From positions 1-56,961 of IMG/VR virus record IMGVR_UViG_3300037991_005841: a stretch of DNA of 56,961 nt. One strand, 5' to 3'. Positions 5,150 through 12,280 of the stretch are shown here, in pieces. Position 1 is the stretch's first letter; the number at the start of each line of letters is the position of its first letter. The position numbers were made by a program, and so were the translations under genes. Under the pieces are notes generated by a model, which ran no database searches, was not told where the DNA came from, and saw only the letters and a list, made by a program, of their open reading frames with translations. Source of the DNA: a virus (Duplodnaviria; Caudoviricetes).

Positions 5150-6565
5150 ATGGCAATACCAATTTTAAATCACATGGATTTCCAAAAATCGGCGGAAATC
5201 AGAAACGTGAGGCTACACAATACAACAAGTGGCGGCGTCACATCACCAGGAACTGGTCAAATAATATACGATACCGGAGGTAGTAGTATAAAATTTTACA
5301 ATGGGTCTTCTTGGGTTGAAGTTGGGTCTGGATCTGGTACAGTAACATCTGTAACTGCTGGTGACGGTATGACTCAAACAGGTACATCAACAATTAATCC
5401 TACTTTAAATGTTGTAGGTGGTGATGGTATCACATCTAGTGCTAATGAAATAGAAGTAGCAGTAGATGATTCAACAATAGGATTATCTGCAACTAATGGG
5501 TCAGGAAATGTATTCGTTAAAAATGGCGGTATTGGTACTACTCAAATAGCAGACGACGCAGTAACTGAAGATAAATTAGCTGACGACTCTGTTAATAGCG
5601 AACACTATGTTGACGGATCTATTGATACAGCTCACATTGCAAATGATCAAGTAACATATGTTAAAATGCAAAATGTTGCAACAGCAAATAGGGTATTAGG
5701 TTCTGCATCAGCGGATGGTGTAATTAGTGAAATCCAAGTTGCAACAGCAATGATTGCTGACGATGCTGTAACCAGCGCTAAATTAGCACATGACATTACA
5801 ATTGCTAATGATTTAACAGTTAGCGGTAATTTAACTGTATCGGGTGATACTATAACAGCAAATGTTGGAACATTAAATGTTGAAGATAAAAATATAACAT
5901 TAAATCAAGCAGGAAGTGATACGAGCTCAACAGCAGATGGAGCGGGTCTTACTATTCAAGATGCAATAGATGCTTCAACTGATGCTACTCTTTTATGGGA
6001 TCAAAGTGATGAGGCATTTGATTTTTCTCATAAAGTTACAGCTCCAGATCTTGTAATTGATAATATTAGAATTAATGGAAGTAATATTGGTCATACATCA
6101 GATACTGATTTAATGGCTTTATCTGCAGGATCGGTAACTGTTGCTGGTAATATAGTTGCAGCAAATTTTAATGCTAGCGGTAATATTAATTTAACAGGAA
6201 CCGGTAATATAACCTATGAGGGTACAGCTAATGATCATGAACAAACAATATCATTTACAGATCCGACTGCTGATAAAACAATAACTGTACCAAATGCAAC
6301 TGGTGGTATGGTAGTGGGTATTACTAAAAAACTATCTGGTGATGGTACAAACACAACATACACAATAACACATAGCTTTGGTTCACCAATAGTTTCCGTG
6401 ACAGTTTTAGATTATGGAAATGATGGTTCAGGCGCTACTTATGACCAAGTGCTTGTTGAAATTCAAAGAAATAGTGATGATGCTGTTGATTTAATATTCG
6501 CTAGTGCCCCTTCGGCAACACAGGATTATTTAGTACTTATATCTAAATTTCCAGCAATATCTTAA
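5150..6565 (+). CDS. Tail/capsid fibre protein
   Basis: GQIIYDT..KFYNGSSW, IADDAVTxxKLA repeats, LTVSGNLTVSG, LNVEDKNITLN, typical of marine phage fibres. Confidence 0.75.
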   Translation: MAIPILNHMDFQKSAEIRNVRLHNTTSGGVTSPGTGQIIYDTGGSSIKFYNGSSWVEVGSGSGTVTSVTAGDGMTQTGTSTINPTLNVVGGDGITSSANEIEVAVDDSTIGLSATNGSGNVFVKNGGIGTTQIADDAVTEDKLADDSVNSEHYVDGSIDTAHIANDQVTYVKMQNVATANRVLGSASADGVISEIQVATAMIADDAVTSAKLAHDITIANDLTVSGNLTVSGDTITANVGTLNVEDKNITLNQAGSDTSSTADGAGLTIQDAIDASTDATLLWDQSDEAFDFSHKVTAPDLVIDNIRINGSNIGHTSDTDLMALSAGSVTVAGNIVAANFNASGNINLTGTGNITYEGTANDHEQTISFTDPTADKTITVPNATGGMVVGITKKLSGDGTNTTYTITHSFGSPIVSVTVLDYGNDGSGATYDQVLVEIQRNSDDAVDLIFASAPSATQDYLVLISKFPAIS

Positions 6566-7056: not shown

Positions 7057-9156
7057 ATGAGGTGGTTGTGGAACAGAATTTACCTATTTAATACTACTGA
7101 ATCAAGAACAACCAGTAAGACAACTAGTAGGTCAACTTCTACATCTAGATCTACATCTACAAGTCGATCTACATCTACAAGCAGATCTACAGCAACTACA
7201 ATTAGCACATCTAGAACAACTACTTTTAGTACTAGTAGAACAACTACATTTAGTACATCTAAAGAAACTTCAACTGTTTATAATACAAGTACCGCAACAG
7301 CTACATCTAGGTCAACCACTTTTTCGACCAGTAAATCTACAACAACTACATTTGCAACATCTAAAAGTACAAATACAACTTTTTCAACTCAAAAAGATAC
7401 TACCACAGTATATACAACTTCATTTAGTACCTCTAGAACAACAAATACTATAACTATAACATATTATTCTACAAATAAAACAACAACAGTTGGGACTACT
7501 AGATCAACAACAACAACGTTCAATACAAGTACTATAACAAGCAAAGCAACTACAACTAATTATAATACTAGTACTACTACAACTATATTTGATACAGGTA
7601 GAGACACTACAACTATATACAGTACAACTTTTTCTACATTTGTAAGAAACTCAATTGGTACATTAATAACAGCATATAATACAAGTACGACTACAACAAC
7701 AGTATATAATACATCTACAAATACTACAACCACTTTTAGTACAAGTCTTATAACAAGTAAATCTACAACAACTACATTTAATACATCTAGAACAACAGTA
7801 TATAATACTTCTACCACAACAAGCACAAGTAGAAGTACAAGCACAATATATACTACAACAACAGTATATAATACTACGAGATCTACTACTACAACATTTT
7901 CTACTAGTAAACCAACAACTACAACGTTCAATACAAGTACCGTAACAACAACAGCGTATACAACTACATTTAACACCACAAGATCTACTACGACTACGTT
8001 TTCTACTAGCAAATCAACAACAACTACGTTTGCTACAAGTAGATCAACTACTACGTCGTTTACAACAACATTTGGTACTAGTAAATCAACTACTACTACA
8101 TTTAGTACAAATAGAAATACAACTGAAAGTAGAAATACAACAACAACGTATACAACAACGACTACATTTGCAACATCTAAAACAACAACTAGGTCAACGA
8201 CTACGACATTTGCAACATCTAGAACAACAACATTTGCAACATCAAGAGGAACTAGTAGAAGTACAACAACTACGTTTGCAACTTCAAGAACAACTACGTT
8301 TGCAACTTCTAGGTCTACAACTAGATCAACAACAACAACATATAACACGTCTAAAAGTACAACAGAATCGAGAAGTACGACAACAACGTATACAACTACG
8401 ACAACATATAATACGTCTAAATCAACGACTACAACTTATAATACAACTAGATCAACAACTACCACGTTTAATACAACAAGAAGTACAAGCACAGTATATA
8501 CTACAAGTATTATAACATCTAGAACAACGACGTTTAATACAAGTAAAGCTACAGGAACATCTAAGTCAACAACAACAGCTTACGCTACTACGACAACATA
8601 TAATACAAGTAAATCTACAACAACTGTGTATGCTACGTCAGTTTCAGTAACTCAAGTAGGGTATAATTCAAGTGCCACAACATATTTTGATGCATGTAAT
8701 GAATTTATTTGTTGTAACCTTTGGATTACTAACCCGCAGCCAGGCGGTGTTCCTACAGCAAACTCTTCTGTAGCATATACAAATTCTAGTGCTACATCAA
8801 CATTAGCAAATGGATTATATGCATATCAAGATACTACTGGTGGTTTTGGTGCAACACATTTTATTACTGTTACAGGTGGTTCTGGATTAATTACAGCTGT
8901 AAATAACTGTAGTGGTGGTGGTTTTTCAGATAGAAGAATTAAAAAAGATATTAAACTAATAGGTGTATCACCAAAAGGAATTAATATTTATGAATTTAGA
9001 TTTATAAATAATATATATGAAGGATTGTGGCAAGGTGTTATGGCAGATGAGGTTAAAGACATGCACCCTAATTTAGTTTCAAAAATAGGTGGTTATGATT
9101 ACGTAAACTACGGAAATTATGGATTAGATGTTGAATTTAAACAAATTGGTAAGTAA
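7057..9156 (+). CDS. Thr-rich fibre chain A with Cys-containing tip domain and C-terminal intramolecular chaperone (Peptidase_S74-like)
   Basis: aa 11-530 Thr/Ser repeats; C-terminal FSDRRIKKDIKLIG..IYEF..GVMADEV..VNY is the S74 autocleaving chaperone signature. Confidence 0.8.
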   Translation: MRWLWNRIYLFNTTESRTTSKTTSRSTSTSRSTSTSRSTSTSRSTATTISTSRTTTFSTSRTTTFSTSKETSTVYNTSTATATSRSTTFSTSKSTTTTFATSKSTNTTFSTQKDTTTVYTTSFSTSRTTNTITITYYSTNKTTTVGTTRSTTTTFNTSTITSKATTTNYNTSTTTTIFDTGRDTTTIYSTTFSTFVRNSIGTLITAYNTSTTTTTVYNTSTNTTTTFSTSLITSKSTTTTFNTSRTTVYNTSTTTSTSRSTSTIYTTTTVYNTTRSTTTTFSTSKPTTTTFNTSTVTTTAYTTTFNTTRSTTTTFSTSKSTTTTFATSRSTTTSFTTTFGTSKSTTTTFSTNRNTTESRNTTTTYTTTTTFATSKTTTRSTTTTFATSRTTTFATSRGTSRSTTTTFATSRTTTFATSRSTTRSTTTTYNTSKSTTESRSTTTTYTTTTTYNTSKSTTTTYNTTRSTTTTFNTTRSTSTVYTTSIITSRTTTFNTSKATGTSKSTTTAYATTTTYNTSKSTTTVYATSVSVTQVGYNSSATTYFDACNEFICCNLWITNPQPGGVPTANSSVAYTNSSATSTLANGLYAYQDTTGGFGATHFITVTGGSGLITAVNNCSGGGFSDRRIKKDIKLIGVSPKGINIYEFRFINNIYEGLWQGVMADEVKDMHPNLVSKIGGYDYVNYGNYGLDVEFKQIGK

Positions 9157-9725
9157 TGGAAAATTATTTTAATGAAAGCGAAATAGCTGCTACAAATAAA
9201 ACCAACTTTGTTATAGAAAAAGTAACGAAAGACAAAAGCGCAACAGAAACAATAACAATTTCTACATTTAAGTATAAAAGTGACGTGTTTCATTGTAAAC
9301 AAAATCTTAACGTTGCACATAAAAAAATTGCTGGCGATGGTGATGATTTAGGGTGGGATTTAACAAGTGATCAATATGATAATGCAACATGGGGAGATAT
9401 TTTATATTTAGGTTTATATTTGGGTTGTACACCTGATTATATATATAATAATAAATCTGTAACGAGTATTGATGTAATTGAAAATGACCAGCAAATTATA
9501 GACTATGTAGATTGGATTAATAATAATATAACAGTAATACAAGGAGACGAATGGACATATGTTCCAGCAAATAGCAAAACATATGATATTATAATATGTG
9601 ATTTATGGGCTTTACCAAGCGATATAACACAAGATCATAAAACAAATTTAGTAAATCATTATACTACGCATTTAAAAACGGGTGGTAAAATAATAATACC
9701 TATATCAGGTGAAACAATAAGTTAA
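9156..9725 (+). CDS. Class I SAM-dependent methyltransferase-fold protein (spermidine synthase-like)
   Basis: DILYLGLYLG (degenerate motif I), IDVIEND, IQGD, YDIIICDLW, LKTGGKIII. Confidence 0.65.
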   Translation: MENYFNESEIAATNKTNFVIEKVTKDKSATETITISTFKYKSDVFHCKQNLNVAHKKIAGDGDDLGWDLTSDQYDNATWGDILYLGLYLGCTPDYIYNNKSVTSIDVIENDQQIIDYVDWINNNITVIQGDEWTYVPANSKTYDIIICDLWALPSDITQDHKTNLVNHYTTHLKTGGKIIIPISGETIS

Positions 9726-9726
9726 A

Positions 9727-11313
9727 ATGCCAAATACAAGTAGAAGTACAACAACGGTTTTCGCTACCAGTGATTTAACAGCTGAGAGCAGGAATACAAC
9801 GACTTCGTTTAACACGACTACGACGTATAATACAAGTAGAACAACTACATATACTAGTTATTTTTCTACTGGTAGATCTACAACTACAACATTTTCAACT
9901 TCTAAGTCAACTACAACTACTTTTAACACATCTAAAAGTACAACAACAACATTTGCTACAAGTAGATCAACAACAGAGTCTAGATCAACAACTACAGTAT
10001 ATACTACTACTACAACATATAATACTAGTAAAAGTACTACAACAACATTTACTACTACATTCAACACGTCGAGAACAACAACGTTTAACACGAGCACCAC
10101 TACTACCACTGCCTATACAACAACTTTTAATACAAGTAGAACGACAACATTTAATACAAGTACTGCGACTATAACTACTTATACAACTACTTTTAATACG
10201 ACTAGATCGACTTCTGAATCTAGGTCTACGACAACCGTATATACAACTAATACTGTATTTAATACAAGTACTGCAACTACAACTGCGTATAATACATCAA
10301 CAACAACGTCTAGAAGTACAACAACAACATTTAATACGTCAAAAAGTACAACTACAGTTTATAATACGTCTACTACAACTACAACAACATTTTCAACTAG
10401 TAGGGGAACCAGCAAAAGCACAACGACAACTTTTAGTACTAGTAGAAGTACAACTACGACGTTTAATACAAGTACTACTACTGTAACTACTTTCAATACC
10501 TCAACAACCACAACTGAAGGTAGAAGTACAACAACTGTTTTTACCACTACAACAACATATAATACATCTAAAACAACAACATTTAATACTAGTACTACTA
10601 CAACAACTGTATATACCACAACTTTTAATACAACAAGAAGTACAAGTACTAGTAAATCTACAAGTAAATCTACGTCTACAACGTTTGATACATTTAGAGA
10701 TACATTGTCGACAGTTGCAATAAATAGAAATACAACCAGAATAACAGATACTATAACAATTACAGCGTTTAATACAAGTACTACTACGGCATATAATACA
10801 AGTACCACTACAACTACTGTTTATACCACAACATTTGCAACTAATACAAGCACTACAACTGCTTTTAATACAAGTACGATAACCGCGTATAATACTCAAA
10901 CAGACACAACTACTGTTTATACAACAACATTTAATACGTCAACTATAACCAATACAATAACTATAACTGTATTTAACACAACAACGTCAACTACTACTAC
11001 GTATAATACAAGTACAAATACAACTACTGTATATAATACTAGTACAACAACAACGTTTAACACAACAACAGCGTATAATACTAGCACAAATACAACAACA
11101 ACATTTAACACTAGTACAACAACAGTATTTAATACTCAAACTACTACTGTGTTTAATACAAGTACAAATACAACAACGACATTTAATACAACGACAACTT
11201 ATAATACTACAACAACGTATAATACTACAACAACGTATACTACTAGTTTTACAACAACATATACTACTCAGACTAGTTTTTATTCACCTTCGTCGTCGTT
11301 TGGGCAGGTGTAG
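9727..11313 (+). CDS. Thr-rich fibre chain B (mirror partner of chain A)
   Basis: 528 aa almost entirely (F/Y)NTS(R/K/T)STTTT-type units; Thr codons vary, as expected of a real coding sequence. Confidence 0.8.
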   Translation: MPNTSRSTTTVFATSDLTAESRNTTTSFNTTTTYNTSRTTTYTSYFSTGRSTTTTFSTSKSTTTTFNTSKSTTTTFATSRSTTESRSTTTVYTTTTTYNTSKSTTTTFTTTFNTSRTTTFNTSTTTTTAYTTTFNTSRTTTFNTSTATITTYTTTFNTTRSTSESRSTTTVYTTNTVFNTSTATTTAYNTSTTTSRSTTTTFNTSKSTTTVYNTSTTTTTTFSTSRGTSKSTTTTFSTSRSTTTTFNTSTTTVTTFNTSTTTTEGRSTTTVFTTTTTYNTSKTTTFNTSTTTTTVYTTTFNTTRSTSTSKSTSKSTSTTFDTFRDTLSTVAINRNTTRITDTITITAFNTSTTTAYNTSTTTTTVYTTTFATNTSTTTAFNTSTITAYNTQTDTTTVYTTTFNTSTITNTITITVFNTTTSTTTTYNTSTNTTTVYNTSTTTTFNTTTAYNTSTNTTTTFNTSTTTVFNTQTTTVFNTSTNTTTTFNTTTTYNTTTTYNTTTTYTTSFTTTYTTQTSFYSPSSSFGQV

Positions 11314-11368: not shown

Positions 11369-12280
11369 ATGGAAATGTTTAATAAGAATGAGCTTGATAA
11401 AAGAATCGGGCCATTAAAGAAAAACAAAAAATTATATGATCTTGAAGCGGTTGAAGGTTATGTAATTAGAAAATGTAGTGAAAACGGCATAGAAGCAGCG
11501 TATGATGTTATGGCTGAAGAGATGCCACACTTTAGAACGATGGGTTATACAGAATATGCTGGTAACTTTTATTTACAACCGTTAAATTATAAATTAAGAA
11601 ACGAACAATTAATAGATGCTTATTATGATAATAGTAAGCAGAGTGTTGTTGATTATTCAGATTGGTTAGTAAACAAAATAGTAAGTAATGATGCAAATAA
11701 GTATCAAGATAGAGACGAAAAAGCTTTATCAAGATATGCACCTAAAGATTATATTGTTGTATTACCAGGTTCAAACAAAGTGAGAGAAAACGTTTGTCTA
11801 AATAGATTAAAAGCAATATCTCACGAACATGGTGATAATATATATTTTAAACCACATCCAATAACAACACATCAAATTATTGGCGAATTGAAAGATTTTT
11901 TTGGTGAAGAAAATATATTACCAAGAAATATAAACATGTATTATTATTTACAAAAAGCTAAAGGTGTTTATACTACACATATTAGTGAAAGTTGTTTATA
12001 TGGTGTTATATTAGGTAAAGATACACAACCAATAGACGTTTGGAATAATATACAAAGAGGTTCTTTTTATTGTATAAATAATCATTTATTATATCATCAA
12101 AAAAACGCAAAAAGTTATGTAAACAAAACTTTTTCACATTATAAATCAGGTATTATAAATCCTGAATTAGATAAAAACTGGAAAGAAAAAGTTGACAAAT
12201 ACTTTGATTACATATTAGAAAAAAGAGCATCATATAAAAATTGGTTTGTAGATACTCACCCAAAAGCAAATAAAAAATAA
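11369..12280 (+). CDS. Capsule-biosynthesis-like glycosyltransferase (KpsS/KpsC-like GT-B)
   Basis: IYFKPHP motif, then LQKAKGVYTTHISES..YGVILGK, resembling the xKxHP and 'V.TxxS..G.EA...GK' motifs. Confidence 0.5.
   Translation: MEMFNKNELDKRIGPLKKNKKLYDLEAVEGYVIRKCSENGIEAAYDVMAEEMPHFRTMGYTEYAGNFYLQPLNYKLRNEQLIDAYYDNSKQSVVDYSDWLVNKIVSNDANKYQDRDEKALSRYAPKDYIVVLPGSNKVRENVCLNRLKAISHEHGDNIYFKPHPITTHQIIGELKDFFGEENILPRNINMYYYLQKAKGVYTTHISESCLYGVILGKDTQPIDVWNNIQRGSFYCINNHLLYHQKNAKSYVNKTFSHYKSGIINPELDKNWKEKVDKYFDYILEKRASYKNWFVDTHPKANKK

What the first reader, a model, noticed from the sequence alone, without database searches (positions are those of the whole stretch)
7057..11313. Two Thr-rich proteins are antiparallel mirror complements with a Lys/Arg-to-Phe/Tyr pairing code
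Seen in sequence (hand-indexed, spot-checked against the DNA): chain A (7057) and chain B (9727) have Thr-rich tracts of matching length (~520 aa). All 17 K/R of A from residue 17 to 163 face an F/Y of B at i+j=529 (R17-Y512, K21-F508, R25-Y504, R31-Y498 ... K163-Y366). All 28 K/R of A from 235 to 519 face an F/Y of B at i+j=531 (K235-Y296 ... K503-F28, K519-F12). Reciprocally, 23 of 24 K/R in B6-324 face an F/Y of A at 531 (R6-Y525, R22-Y509 ... R324-Y207; exception K310). The spacings are irregular (A: 4,4,6,6,6,10,8,8,16,8,10,10,14,14,8,14), so simple periodicity should not produce this. The large residues share one parity, i.e. one strand face, with mostly small residues on the other. Established: cross-strand cation-pi pairs stabilise antiparallel beta-hairpins, and Thr favours beta strands. 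Inference: A and B zip into one long antiparallel heteromeric beta fibre (up to ~170 nm at ~0.33 nm per residue), with a base-pairing-like code fixing the register. I know of no described system like this.
Basis: partly seen in the sequence, partly recalled or inferred. Interest (0 to 1): 0.97.

Follow-up and report, generated by a model that had tools for sequence, protein, structure and literature searches.

The report
Two phage fibre proteins that zip antiparallel
Two neighbouring threonine-rich genes of a marine phage encode chains whose lysines and arginines line up, read in opposite directions, with the other chain's aromatic residues, and related phages keep this match through mirror-image insertions and deletions, which points to a two-protein beta fibre whose register is set by a residue pairing code.

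Summary
Every count it gave was reproduced: 17 of 17 at i+j=529, 28 of 28 at 531, and 23 of 24 in B. Offset 531 gives 51 basic-aromatic pairs, the next best offset 28. None of 2000 shuffles in each of four controls, two of them unit shuffles, reached 51.

The genes are not DNA inverted repeats, so the relation lies in the proteins.

Forty-four non-identical homologous gene pairs from viral and marine metagenome contigs keep the gene order A, methyltransferase-like gene, B.
- Chain lengths covary (r=0.991; B is 439-1191 aa).
- Each pair has one dominant antiparallel offset.
- After gapped alignment, 2115 of 2301 K/R in the A tracts and 1828 of 1975 K/R in B face F/Y/W.
- Indels are mirrored. 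One example is a 68-aa deletion in both genes of a 98%-identical pair.
- The cognate B is the best partner for 39 of 44 A chains.

A ends in an S74-like chaperone domain typical of trimeric fibres.

Best reading: A and B pair as very long antiparallel beta strands in a heteromeric virion fibre. I found no description of such a system. Structure and stoichiometry remain untested.

The parts
7057..9156 (+). Gene A (699 aa). It has a short conserved N-terminus, a Thr-rich tract, a small globular domain and an S74-like C-terminal domain.
   Evidence: ORF. Homologues lie in the same position in 44 loci.
7057..8646 (+). Thr-rich tract of A (residues 1-530) with a strict two-residue alternation. One face carries T/K/R/F/Y, the other T/S/N/A/V/I.
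   Evidence: Composition. Parity counts: odd positions T151 R29 F25 Y19 K17; even positions T95 S92 N26 A17 V9 I8.
7105..7545 (+). A residues 17-163. This segment is basic-rich and pairs with B366-512 at i+j=529.
   Evidence: 17 of 17 K/R face F/Y.
7585..7701 (+). The 'node' in A (about residues 177-215), a stretch that is not Thr-rich and contains hydrophobic residues. The register shifts from 529 to 531 here.
   Evidence: The same motif recurs about every 98 aa in the long homologues and is present in both chains.
7648..8646 (+). A residues 198-530, which pair with B1-333 at i+j=531 without a gap.
   Evidence: Block structure. 28 of 28 K/R of A235-519 and 23 of 24 K/R of B6-324 are paired.
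8647..8925 (+). Small globular domain of A (residues 531-623), presumed to be the distal tip.
   Evidence: Not Thr-rich. Conserved C, G and P columns in alignment A2. PHROG hits to the C-termini of tail fibres. The function is inferred.
8926..9153 (+). S74-like intramolecular chaperone domain of A (residue 624 to the end).
   Evidence: Pfam PF13884 at E=3.3e-4 and 21.3 bits (cut-off 22), covering model positions 1-57 of 58. S624 and K629 are invariant in 18 homologues.
9156..9725 (+). Middle gene (189 aa), a small protein with a class I SAM-methyltransferase / aminopropyltransferase fold. It lies between A and B in all 44 loci where both genes are complete.
   Evidence: AF2 model with pLDDT 95.1. 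Foldseek against PDB gives E about 1e-5 to methyltransferases and spermidine synthases. Relatives match methyltransferase Pfams. Synteny.
9727..11313 (+). Gene B (528 aa). It is Thr-rich from end to end, has no globular domain, and is the antiparallel complement of the A tract.
   Evidence: No Pfam, PHROG or NCBIfam family.
10678..10776 (+). The 'node' in B (about residues 318-350). It has the same motif type as the node in A, in forward orientation, and faces it.
10822..11262 (+). B residues 366-512. This segment has aromatic residues and no K/R, and faces the basic-rich A17-163.
   Evidence: All K/R of B lie at residues 6-338.
11369..12280 (+). Conserved 303-aa gene directly downstream of B, in all loci that extend that far. 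Whether it belongs to the system is open.
   Evidence: Synteny. PHROG 26179, function unknown. The Atlas gives a feature-level likeness to KpsS/LipB capsule-synthesis clusters, which is only a lead.

Best explanation
A and B are the two chains of one very long heteromeric beta fibre of a marine podophage related to Flavobacterium/Cellulophaga phages.

Inferred structure. Each chain is, for about 520 residues (440 to 1190 in relatives), an almost unbroken beta strand. One face carries Thr plus the large residues (K/R/H and F/Y/W); the other carries small residues (T/S/N/A/V). The chains lie side by side in opposite directions. The N-terminus of B starts at the junction between A's shaft and its tip domain, and the C-terminus of B ends at A's N-terminus.

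The rule shown by the sequences. On the shared face, every basic residue of one chain sits opposite an aromatic residue of the other. Aromatic residues may also face Thr. Basic never faces basic, and aromatic almost never faces aromatic. The spacing of these pairs is irregular (4, 6, 8, 10, 14, 16 ...), so the pattern works as a barcode that allows only one register. That solves the slippage problem of a repetitive strand.

Further inference. A's C-terminal S74-like domain probably trimerises the assembly and is then cleaved off. The likely mature object is therefore A3B3, either three ribbons or one six-stranded bundle or tube, 150-400 nm long if fully extended.

What is shown and what is inferred. 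Shown: the residue-level mirror coupling and its maintenance in evolution. Inferred: beta conformation, direct contact, the presence of B in the mature virion, the stoichiometry, and the role as a host-binding appendage.
For: (1) Window. Offset 531 gives 51 pairs against 28 for the next best, and 0 of 2000 shuffles reach 51 in each of four controls.

(2) The relation is at protein level.
- A codons against the reverse complement of B codons, at register 531, are 45/15/43% identical by codon position, the same as at other registers.
- Only short, imperfect inverted repeats are present.
- Both tracts are 10% G, 22% C, 43% A and 25% T, so they cannot form a duplex with each other.

(3) The 44 non-identical homologous pairs.
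- Length of A against length of B has r=0.991.
- Each pair has one dominant antiparallel offset near the length of B.
- With 1-10 register blocks per pair, 2115 of 2301 A-tract K/R and 1828 of 1975 B K/R face F/Y/W.

(4) Mirror-image indels.
- L008/L009 (98% identical): 68 aa at A126-193 and at B304-371. The residue sums are 497 and 497; the offset is 496.
- L002/L003: two 12-aa indels in each gene at mirrored places.
- L002/L006: a 54-aa indel near the start of A and near the end of B.
- Window/L001: five indels in exactly mirrored order.

(5) Direction of change, in 11 comparisons that are not independent. The basic residue was lost or gained while the aromatic stayed 90 times. The aromatic was lost, leaving a basic residue unpaired, 5 times. 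The pair swapped orientation 9 times.

(6) Partner specificity. The cognate B is the top-scoring partner for 39 of 44 A chains, and the 5 exceptions are close relatives.

(7) Hold-out test. His was not scored as basic in the alignment, yet it faces an aromatic residue in 21 of 38 cases in A and 26 of 43 in B.

(8) Period-2 pattern. 5093 of 5299 K/R/F/Y/W of the A chains lie on one parity within register blocks. Thr is 47-50% of residues, and Pro, Gly and Leu are scarce.

(9) Fibre context. The S74-like domain, PHROG tail-fibre hits, a DUF5907 fibre-like gene upstream, and the position next to the terminase, portal and structural genes.
Against: - There is no experimental evidence and no cultured relative. 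The middle gene has no match in 50,697 phage records.
- No confident structure exists. The Atlas's own model of B has pLDDT 0.40.
- I know of no ribbon hundreds of residues long without a hydrophobic core, so its stability is an open question.
- About 7-8% of basic residues are unpaired after alignment.
- One of the 44 pairs (L044) lacks 28 aa in A with no matching change in B. Repeat collapse during assembly could explain this, but I did not show it.
- The gapped alignment was optimised for basic-aromatic pairs, so its percentages lean towards the code. The ungapped scans, the indel mapping and the His result do not share that bias.
- The S74 match is 0.7 bits below Pfam's cut-off.
Confidence: 0.72

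Rival explanations
1. B is not a structural subunit. It is a full-length template or chaperone that pairs with the A strand in the same antiparallel register while the fibre folds, keeping the repetitive shaft in register and soluble. It is then released or degraded, leaving a fibre made only of A.
For: - Phage fibre chaperones are commonly encoded just downstream of the fibre gene (established knowledge; the search listings show such cases).
- B has no globular or attachment domain.
- All the covariation evidence requires contact but does not say when it occurs.
Against: - A chaperone matched 1:1 in length and residue by residue over 440-1190 aa would be costly, and I know of none (recalled).
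- Without B, A's large-residue face would leave about 49 K/R with no partner in an A-only shaft, and A scores poorly against itself: best 34 against 51 plus a further 17 with B.
- The C-terminal tails of B are conserved within subfamilies, as expected of a virion-attached end.
Confidence: 0.17
2. The mirror relation is a nucleic-acid feature. On this view the two coding regions are arms of a long inverted repeat or pair as RNA, and the protein pattern (K=AAA opposite F=TTT) is a by-product.
For: In-frame reverse complementation maps AAA to TTT. This was the reason to test the idea.
Against: - At the paired register the identity of A to the reverse complement of B is no higher than at other registers.
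- Only 4 of the 51 paired sites use AAA/TTT. Most are AGA/TTT, AGA/TAT or AAA/TAT.
- Thr codons (ACN) cannot pair with Thr codons.
- Both tracts are 10% G and 22% C.
- The inverted repeats found are 14-32 nt long and 71-93% complementary, and they are scattered.
Confidence: 0.01
3. The two genes encode independent low-complexity (mucin-like or disordered) Thr-rich proteins. The apparent complementarity then comes from shared, internally symmetric repeat units.
For: - Many units (K/R-x5-F/Y, and K/R-x3-F/Y) are individually self-complementary.
- A and B share several unit types.
- The structural neighbours of the Atlas model include mucins, at low confidence.
Against: - Shuffling the order of units abolishes the signal (0 of 2000).
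- A17-163 is basic-rich and faces a segment of B that has only aromatic residues, which self-symmetric units cannot produce.
- Indels are mirrored and lengths covary with r=0.99.
- Partners are specific.
- The period-2 pattern held over about 520 residues does not fit a disordered linker.
Confidence: 0.02

Closest known systems
Trimeric phage tail fibres and spikes with a C-terminal intramolecular chaperone (Peptidase_S74: K1F endosialidase, T5 pb1 L-shaped fibre)
   Same: - A ends in an S74-like domain with an invariant Ser and an invariant Lys five residues later.
- It lies in a structural gene cluster beside another fibre-like gene.
- It has a long repetitive shaft ahead of a small distal domain.
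- For T5 pb1 I saw only the search listing and the start of the abstract (PMC4690869).
   Different: Known members are homotrimers whose shafts are built from three copies of one chain (triple beta-helix and similar folds; recalled). Here a second gene product, matched in length, is coupled residue by residue to the shaft in the opposite direction. The Pfam score is just under the cut-off.
Chain-like fibres of podophages A1002, GP4 and VP1 (an extended 'rope' protein decorated with fibre dimers by beta-sheet augmentation)
   Same: A phage fibre made of more than one protein, in which an extended strand-like segment of one protein is completed by beta-augmentation from a partner (PMC13730344; passages read).
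   Different: There the partners are many copies of globular dimers docked in a row on a rope domain. Here there is one partner chain as long as the shaft, running antiparallel, with a basic-aromatic pairing rule. The paper describes no such code and no such length matching.
Heteromeric coiled coils and collagen heterotrimers (register and partner set by charge pairs)
   Same: Works alike. Long fibrous chains choose their partner and register through a simple side-chain pairing rule repeated along the fibre (recalled textbook knowledge).
   Different: The secondary structure is different: period 2, Thr-rich, and with neither heptads nor Gly-X-Y repeats. The pair type is different too, being cation or His with aromatic, not acid with base. 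Acidic residues face Thr or Ser here. This is not a member of either family.
Single-layer beta-sheet rods and designed beta-hairpins with cross-strand cation-pi pairs (OspA, SasG G5-E repeats, Trp/Lys hairpin peptides)
   Same: Extended beta structure without a conventional hydrophobic core, and cross-strand Lys/Arg-aromatic and Thr-Thr pairs as stabilising contacts. All of this is recalled and was not tested here.
   Different: Those are single chains, or short peptides of tens of residues. Here there are two separate gene products of 440-1190 residues with an evolutionarily maintained barcode.
Tail fibre assembly chaperones encoded downstream of the fibre gene (T4 gp38/gp57A, Tfa of Mu and lambda)
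   Same: The gene lies downstream of the fibre gene and the coupling is specific to the cognate fibre.
   Different: Known chaperones are small and act on the distal tip (recalled). B matches the whole shaft in length, has no similarity to any family, and is a repetitive strand itself.

Membership tests
Peptidase_S74 intramolecular-chaperone fibre/spike proteins (gene A) | Match to Pfam PF13884 at or above the gathering score | tested here: inconclusive
   21.3 bits against a cut-off of 22, E=3.3e-4, with model positions 1-57 of 58 covered when the C-terminal 78 aa are scanned alone. The score is 19.1 bits on the last 169 aa. There is no hit when the whole protein is scanned at E<=0.01.
Peptidase_S74 intramolecular-chaperone fibre/spike proteins (gene A) | Conserved cleavage-site Ser with a Lys a few residues downstream (the Ser-Lys dyad is recalled from endosialidase work) | tested here: met
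   S624 and K629 are invariant in the 18-sequence alignment A2. That these two residues form the catalytic dyad rests on recall.
Peptidase_S74 intramolecular-chaperone fibre/spike proteins (gene A) | Trimerisation and autocleavage of the C-terminal domain | not testable with these tools
   This needs expression and mass spectrometry or SDS-PAGE.
Homotrimeric tail fibre shaft folds (triple beta-helix, beta-spiral) | A shaft made of one gene product with a regular repeat length | tested here: not met
   The spacing is irregular, and a second chain covaries with the shaft.
Tail fibre assembly chaperones (gene B) | Sequence membership of a known chaperone family | tested here: not met
   No Pfam, PHROG or NCBIfam match for B. 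The Atlas neighbours are unnamed viral clusters.
Tail fibre assembly chaperones (gene B) | Absent from, or sub-stoichiometric in, the mature fibre | not testable with these tools
   This needs virion proteomics.
Disordered mucin-like Thr-rich linkers (A tract, B) | No fixed positional pattern, with length free to vary | tested here: not met
   90 of 95 large residues in A and 82 of 86 in B lie on one parity. The lengths of the two genes are locked together, r=0.991.
DNA inverted repeat / cruciform | Reverse-complement identity between the two arms | tested here: not met
Class I SAM-dependent methyltransferases (middle gene) | Rossmann-type methyltransferase fold | tested here: met
   AF2 model with pLDDT 95.1. 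Foldseek probability is 1.00 and E is about 1e-5 to CcbJ, TylM1, phosphoethanolamine methyltransferase and spermidine synthases, with TMq 0.45-0.55.
Class I SAM-dependent methyltransferases (middle gene) | Pfam match above the cut-off, and a glycine-rich motif I (GxGxG; motif recalled) | tested here: not met
   The best Pfam hit, Spermine_synth, scores 17.3 bits against a cut-off of 22.9. Copies in the cassette read G-L-Y/H-L/M-G where more distant relatives read G-L-G-L-G. Catalytic competence is therefore open.

The most novel reading that the evidence does not exclude
Nature has a protein counterpart of base pairing. Two separately encoded strands, hundreds to over a thousand residues long, recognise each other in antiparallel orientation through a two-letter code: {K,R,H} opposite {F,Y,W}, with Thr as a neutral spacer. 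The irregular spacing of the pairs is a barcode that fixes a unique register. Trimerised by the S74 domain, they would form an A3B3 beta nanofibre or tube of 150-400 nm. Phages lengthen, shorten and recombine it by mirrored indels. The nested gene order (A distal end, then B start) would let one exchange replace matched inner segments of both chains.
Probability: 0.5. Interest if true: 0.96.

Novelty: categorically new. Interest (0 to 1): 0.93.

Why it matters
If the reading holds, this is a new principle for building fibrous proteins. A heteromeric antiparallel beta fibre would have its partner choice and register written in a simple, readable side-chain code, and the rule is maintained across at least 44 natural variants that differ nearly threefold in length.

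It would matter in three ways.
- It gives structural biology a natural test bed for cross-strand cation-pi and Thr-Thr energetics at very large scale.
- It gives protein design a ready rule set for length-programmable, register-specific beta ribbons or nanotubes.
- It gives phage biology a new kind of host-reaching appendage in abundant marine phages of Flavobacteriia-like hosts.

It is also a rare case where inter-protein contacts can be read directly from sequence covariation, indels included, without any structure.

Tried and rejected
1. DNA or RNA palindrome. Rejected.

2. Self-symmetric repeat units as the whole explanation. Rejected by the unit shuffles and by the basic-only against aromatic-only segments.

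3. Tandem duplication as the source of the 68-aa indels in L008/L009. The segments are not tandem copies; identity to the flanking stretches is 22-41%.

4. Complex prediction. I sent A371-480 in three copies with B51-160 in three copies, using alignments A2 and A3. The result was 'no answer' (ipSAE 0.00 in two runs, and the controls were not run). Choosing a 3+3 design instead of 1+1 may have made the only job harder.

5. AF2 model of the middle protein from 8 sequences. It was poor (pLDDT 46.9) and I did not use it. The 80-sequence alignment gave pLDDT 95.1.

6. A second strand-strand interface, as an A3B3 tube would need. At shifts of +2 or -2 residues from the main register, basic and aromatic residues face Thr almost exclusively. 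At -4 there are 712 aromatic-aromatic contacts. Intra-chain periodicity confounds this, so I drew no conclusion.

7. The downstream 303-aa gene. Pfam and NCBIfam gave nothing meaningful and a profile search against PDB sequences gave no hit. Only the feature-level Atlas lead to KpsS/LipB-like clusters remains.

8. Search for A homologues through its C-terminal domain in the 5.8-billion-protein set. Only 2 hits, which were not informative.

9. Solved-structure search with the C-terminal 189 aa of A. One hit, with E=0.51.

10. Literature. Eight full-text searches found no description of such a pair. Subscription journals are largely outside that library.

Full report
What is there. The window is a 56,961-base IMG/VR virus record, linear, with a CheckV completeness estimate of 89%. 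Its terminase DNA is 64-71% identical to that of Flavobacterium phages and an uncultured virus; Cellulophaga, Tenacibaculum and Maribacter phages are among the other records matched. A portal gene and virion structural genes follow downstream. Upstream of the terminase lie, in order and all on the + strand:
- a fibre-like gene, 5150..6565, with DUF5907 and PHROG tail-fibre hits;
- a 139-aa gene;
- gene A, 7057..9156, 699 aa;
- a 189-aa gene, 9156..9725;
- gene B, 9727..11313, 528 aa;
- a 303-aa gene, 11369..12280.

Residues 1-530 of A and all of B are 47-50% Thr. They contain almost no Pro, Gly or Leu.

Checking the observation.
- 17 of 17 K/R of A17-163 face F/Y of B at i+j=529, with the stated irregular spacings;
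- 28 of 28 K/R of A235-519 face F/Y at 531;
- 23 of 24 K/R of B6-324 face F/Y of A at 531, the exception being K310.

A scan of all antiparallel offsets gives 51 reciprocal pairs at 531 and 28 at the next best offset. In 2000 shuffles of each of four kinds, none reached 51. The four kinds were B repeat units, units of both chains, residues, and residues within parity. The highest unit-shuffle value was 38. A against its own reverse (34), B against its own reverse (26) and the parallel comparison (about 24) are far weaker. The large residues keep one parity over the whole tract: 90 of 95 in A and 82 of 86 in B.

It is not a nucleic-acid feature. In-frame reverse complementation turns AAA (Lys) into TTT (Phe), so I tested for a hidden inverted repeat.
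- At register 531, A codons are 45/15/43% identical, by codon position, to the reverse complement of the facing B codons. Other registers give the same values.
- The paired sites mostly use AGA with TTT or TAT, not AAA with TTT.
- The repeat finder reports only scattered arms of 14-32 nt.
- Both tracts are 10% G and 22% C.

The symmetry therefore lies in the proteins.

Relatives. I used the 189-aa middle gene as a handle, because it is not low-complexity. With it I fetched 10 viral contigs, 58 metagenome contigs and 80 more viral contigs through a broader alignment. Forty-four non-identical loci carry complete A and B genes, and all have the order A, middle gene, B. Several of these loci are near-identical to one another. 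Two loci have one extra gene between A and the middle gene.

B ranges from 439 to 1191 aa, and the lengths of A and B correlate with r=0.991. Each pair has a single dominant antiparallel offset close to the length of B.

I then made a banded, gapped 'complement' alignment, which needed 1-10 register blocks per pair. In it, 2115 of 2301 K/R in the A tracts face F/Y/W of B, and 1828 of 1975 K/R of B face F/Y/W of A. This alignment was optimised for such pairs, so the percentages lean towards the rule. The ungapped scans and the next three tests do not share that bias.

Three independent tests.

First, indels are mirrored.
- L008 and L009 are 98% identical. They differ by one 68-aa indel in A (residues 126-193) and one 68-aa indel in B (304-371). 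The end positions sum to 497 and 497, and the pair's offset is 496.
- L002 and L003 differ by two 12-aa indels in each gene, at mirrored places.
- L002 and L006 share a 54-aa indel near the start of A and near the end of B.
- The window and L001 differ in A by +14, -8, +12, +10, -2, and in B by -2, +10, +12, -8, +14.
- The 68-aa segments are not tandem copies of their neighbours.

Second, the cognate B gives the highest score for 39 of 44 A chains. In the other five the better-scoring B belongs to a close relative.

Third, His was treated as a neutral residue in the alignment. It nevertheless faces an aromatic residue in 21 of 38 cases in A and 26 of 43 in B. Aromatic residues make up only about a tenth of positions.

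One pair, L044, is an exception. Its A lacks 28 aa near the end of the tract while its B is unchanged. The segment lies between direct repeats, so it may be an assembly collapse, but I did not show that.

The rule. Pair frequencies over 17,173 aligned cells were tabulated for the first 22 pairs.
- K/R opposite F/Y occurs at 8-13 times expectation.
- K/R opposite anything else is near zero.
- Aromatic opposite aromatic is near zero.
- Aromatic residues that do not face a basic residue face Thr.
- Acidic residues face Thr or Ser.

Between related pairs the rule is asymmetric. This comes from 11 comparisons that are not independent of one another. A basic residue came or went while the facing aromatic stayed 90 times. 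An aromatic disappeared, leaving a basic residue unpaired, only 5 times. The pair swapped orientation 9 times. A basic residue therefore needs an aromatic partner, but an aromatic residue does not need a basic one.

The complementarity is not only a matter of symmetric units. A17-163 is rich in basic residues, and the facing B366-512 has aromatic residues and no K/R at all.

Both chains also contain a 'node' that is not Thr-rich and has hydrophobic residues. It lies at about A177-215 and B318-350 in the window. The node has the same motif in forward orientation in both chains, with one end of it facing the other end of the partner's copy. In the long homologues it recurs about every 98 residues, and the register steps by one residue there.

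Interpretation. Two chains that stay in contact at i+j=constant over hundreds of residues must run antiparallel with the same rise per residue. The period-2 pattern and the composition point to beta strands and rule out helices. The most economical reading is a two-chain antiparallel beta ribbon. All basic-aromatic pairs would lie on one face, as cross-strand cation-pi or His-aromatic contacts between Thr-Thr pairs. Small residues would lie on the other face. That such contacts stabilise beta-hairpins, and that Thr favours strands, is recalled knowledge.

The irregular spacing would act as a barcode that excludes out-of-register pairing of an otherwise repetitive strand.

A ends in a domain that matches Pfam Peptidase_S74 at 21.3 bits, against a cut-off of 22, over model positions 1-57 of 58. 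Its Ser624 and Lys629 are invariant. Such domains trimerise fibres and are then cut off. That is recalled; for T5 pb1 I saw only the listing and the start of the abstract of PMC4690869. An A3B3 assembly is therefore likely, but I could not decide between three ribbons and one six-stranded tube.

At 0.33 nm per residue the shafts would be about 145 to 390 nm long if fully extended, and shorter if the strands coil. The tracts are strongly cationic: 49 K/R against 7 D/E in A, and 26 against 9 in B.

B may instead be a full-length template that is not kept in the mature fibre. The sequences cannot exclude this (rival 1).

Neighbouring genes. The middle protein folds confidently (pLDDT 95.1 with an 80-sequence alignment). 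The fold is that of class I SAM methyltransferases and aminopropyltransferases (Foldseek E about 1e-5). It has 290 relatives in the representative library, and some of the 80 aligned members match methyltransferase Pfams.

The copies inside this cassette have Tyr or His where relatives have the central Gly of the glycine-rich loop. Whether they are active is therefore open. More distant relatives of this gene follow very large Gly/Ser/Thr-rich fibre-like genes that have no B-like partner. The gene thus seems to be tied to fibre genes in general.

The 303-aa gene after B is conserved in all loci that extend that far. It has distant relatives in Caulobacter and Vibrio phages. At the level of language-model features it resembles KpsS/LipB capsule-synthesis clusters. 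This is only a lead; a profile search against PDB sequences found nothing.

Comparison with what is known. Eight full-text searches found no description of such a pair. The nearest published architecture I found is the chain-like fibre of podophages A1002, GP4 and VP1. There an extended rope segment is completed by beta-augmentation from many globular dimers (PMC13730344; passages read). That system has no length-matched partner strand and no pairing code.

Heteromeric coiled coils and collagen heterotrimers work on a similar principle, with side-chain pairs setting partner and register. They use a different secondary structure and a different pair type (recalled). The middle gene has no match among 50,697 deposited phage genomes, so there is no cultured representative in that collection. 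The Atlas lists only unnamed viral clusters for B.

Limits.
- Nothing here shows the physical structure.
- The single complex-prediction job returned no answer (see Tried and rejected).
- Supplementary files of papers were closed and not used.
- The sample of 44 pairs contains close relatives, so counts of cells are not counts of independent events. The mirrored indels listed above are at least ten separate events.

Verdict. The system is, to my knowledge and within my searches, undescribed.

Noticed in passing
window 9156-9725; L001-L148: The 189-aa gene between A and B has a confident class I SAM-methyltransferase / spermidine-synthase-like fold. Copies in the cassette carry Tyr or His in place of the central Gly of the glycine-rich loop. 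Four of the 80 aligned family members match the N-terminal Pro methyltransferase Pfam (PF05891), and B starts with a conserved Met-Pro. Whether this protein modifies the fibre chains or acts as a chaperone is unknown.
   Followed up: partly
L100, L101, L106, L109, L110, L112, L116, L117, L120, L122, L125, L126, L133, L135, L144: More distant relatives of the middle gene sit just downstream of Gly/Ser/Thr-rich fibre-like genes of 515-2073 aa, mostly with a smaller gene in between, and have no B-like gene after them. The gene is therefore linked to fibre genes more widely than to this cassette.
   Followed up: partly
window 11369-12280: The conserved 303-aa gene directly after B has distant relatives in Caulobacter and Vibrio phages. 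By language-model features it resembles KpsS/LipB capsule-polysaccharide synthesis clusters (score 0.95). Pfam and a PDB profile search give nothing. A role in glycosylating the Thr/Ser-rich fibre is conceivable but untested.
   Followed up: partly
window 7585-7701 and 10678-10776; L002 A residues 100-480: Both chains contain a hydrophobic 'node' motif that is not Thr-rich, in the same forward orientation, with the two copies facing each other head to tail. In the 1100-1360-aa homologues it recurs about every 98 residues, and the register steps by one residue at each node. This suggests a segmented shaft with joints.
   Followed up: partly
L044 against L042 (A residues 780-807 of L042): This is the only uncompensated length difference found. 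L044 A lacks a 28-aa segment lying between direct repeats, while B has the same length (849 aa) in both. It could be an assembly collapse, or a real variant in which the N-terminus of B overhangs.
   Followed up: partly
L096 and other loci: His takes the place of K/R opposite Tyr, Phe or Trp in some families. One example is a run of Ser-His-Gly-Thr units facing a run of Tyr. His is therefore a third 'basic' letter of the code.
   Followed up: yes
window 7560-8348 (-), 8030-8515 (+), 9858-10109 (-), 10359-10899 (-): Long Val-rich ORFs on the minus strand, and Leu/Gln-rich ORFs in another plus frame, overlap the Thr tracts. They are shadows of the ACN codon repeats, and in the homologues they are broken into pieces while the Thr frame stays open.
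   Followed up: partly
window 7057-7095 and 11263-11313; all loci: The first ~13 residues of A (rich in Trp, Arg and Phe) are conserved in nearly all loci. The C-terminal tail of B comes in a few conserved types that differ between subfamilies. The two ends meet in the antiparallel model and may form the foot that attaches to the virion.
   Followed up: no
window 7057-8646 and 9727-11313: GC skew drops to about -0.4 over both tracts and G falls to 10%. This compositional signature could be used to find further members of this gene class.
   Followed up: no
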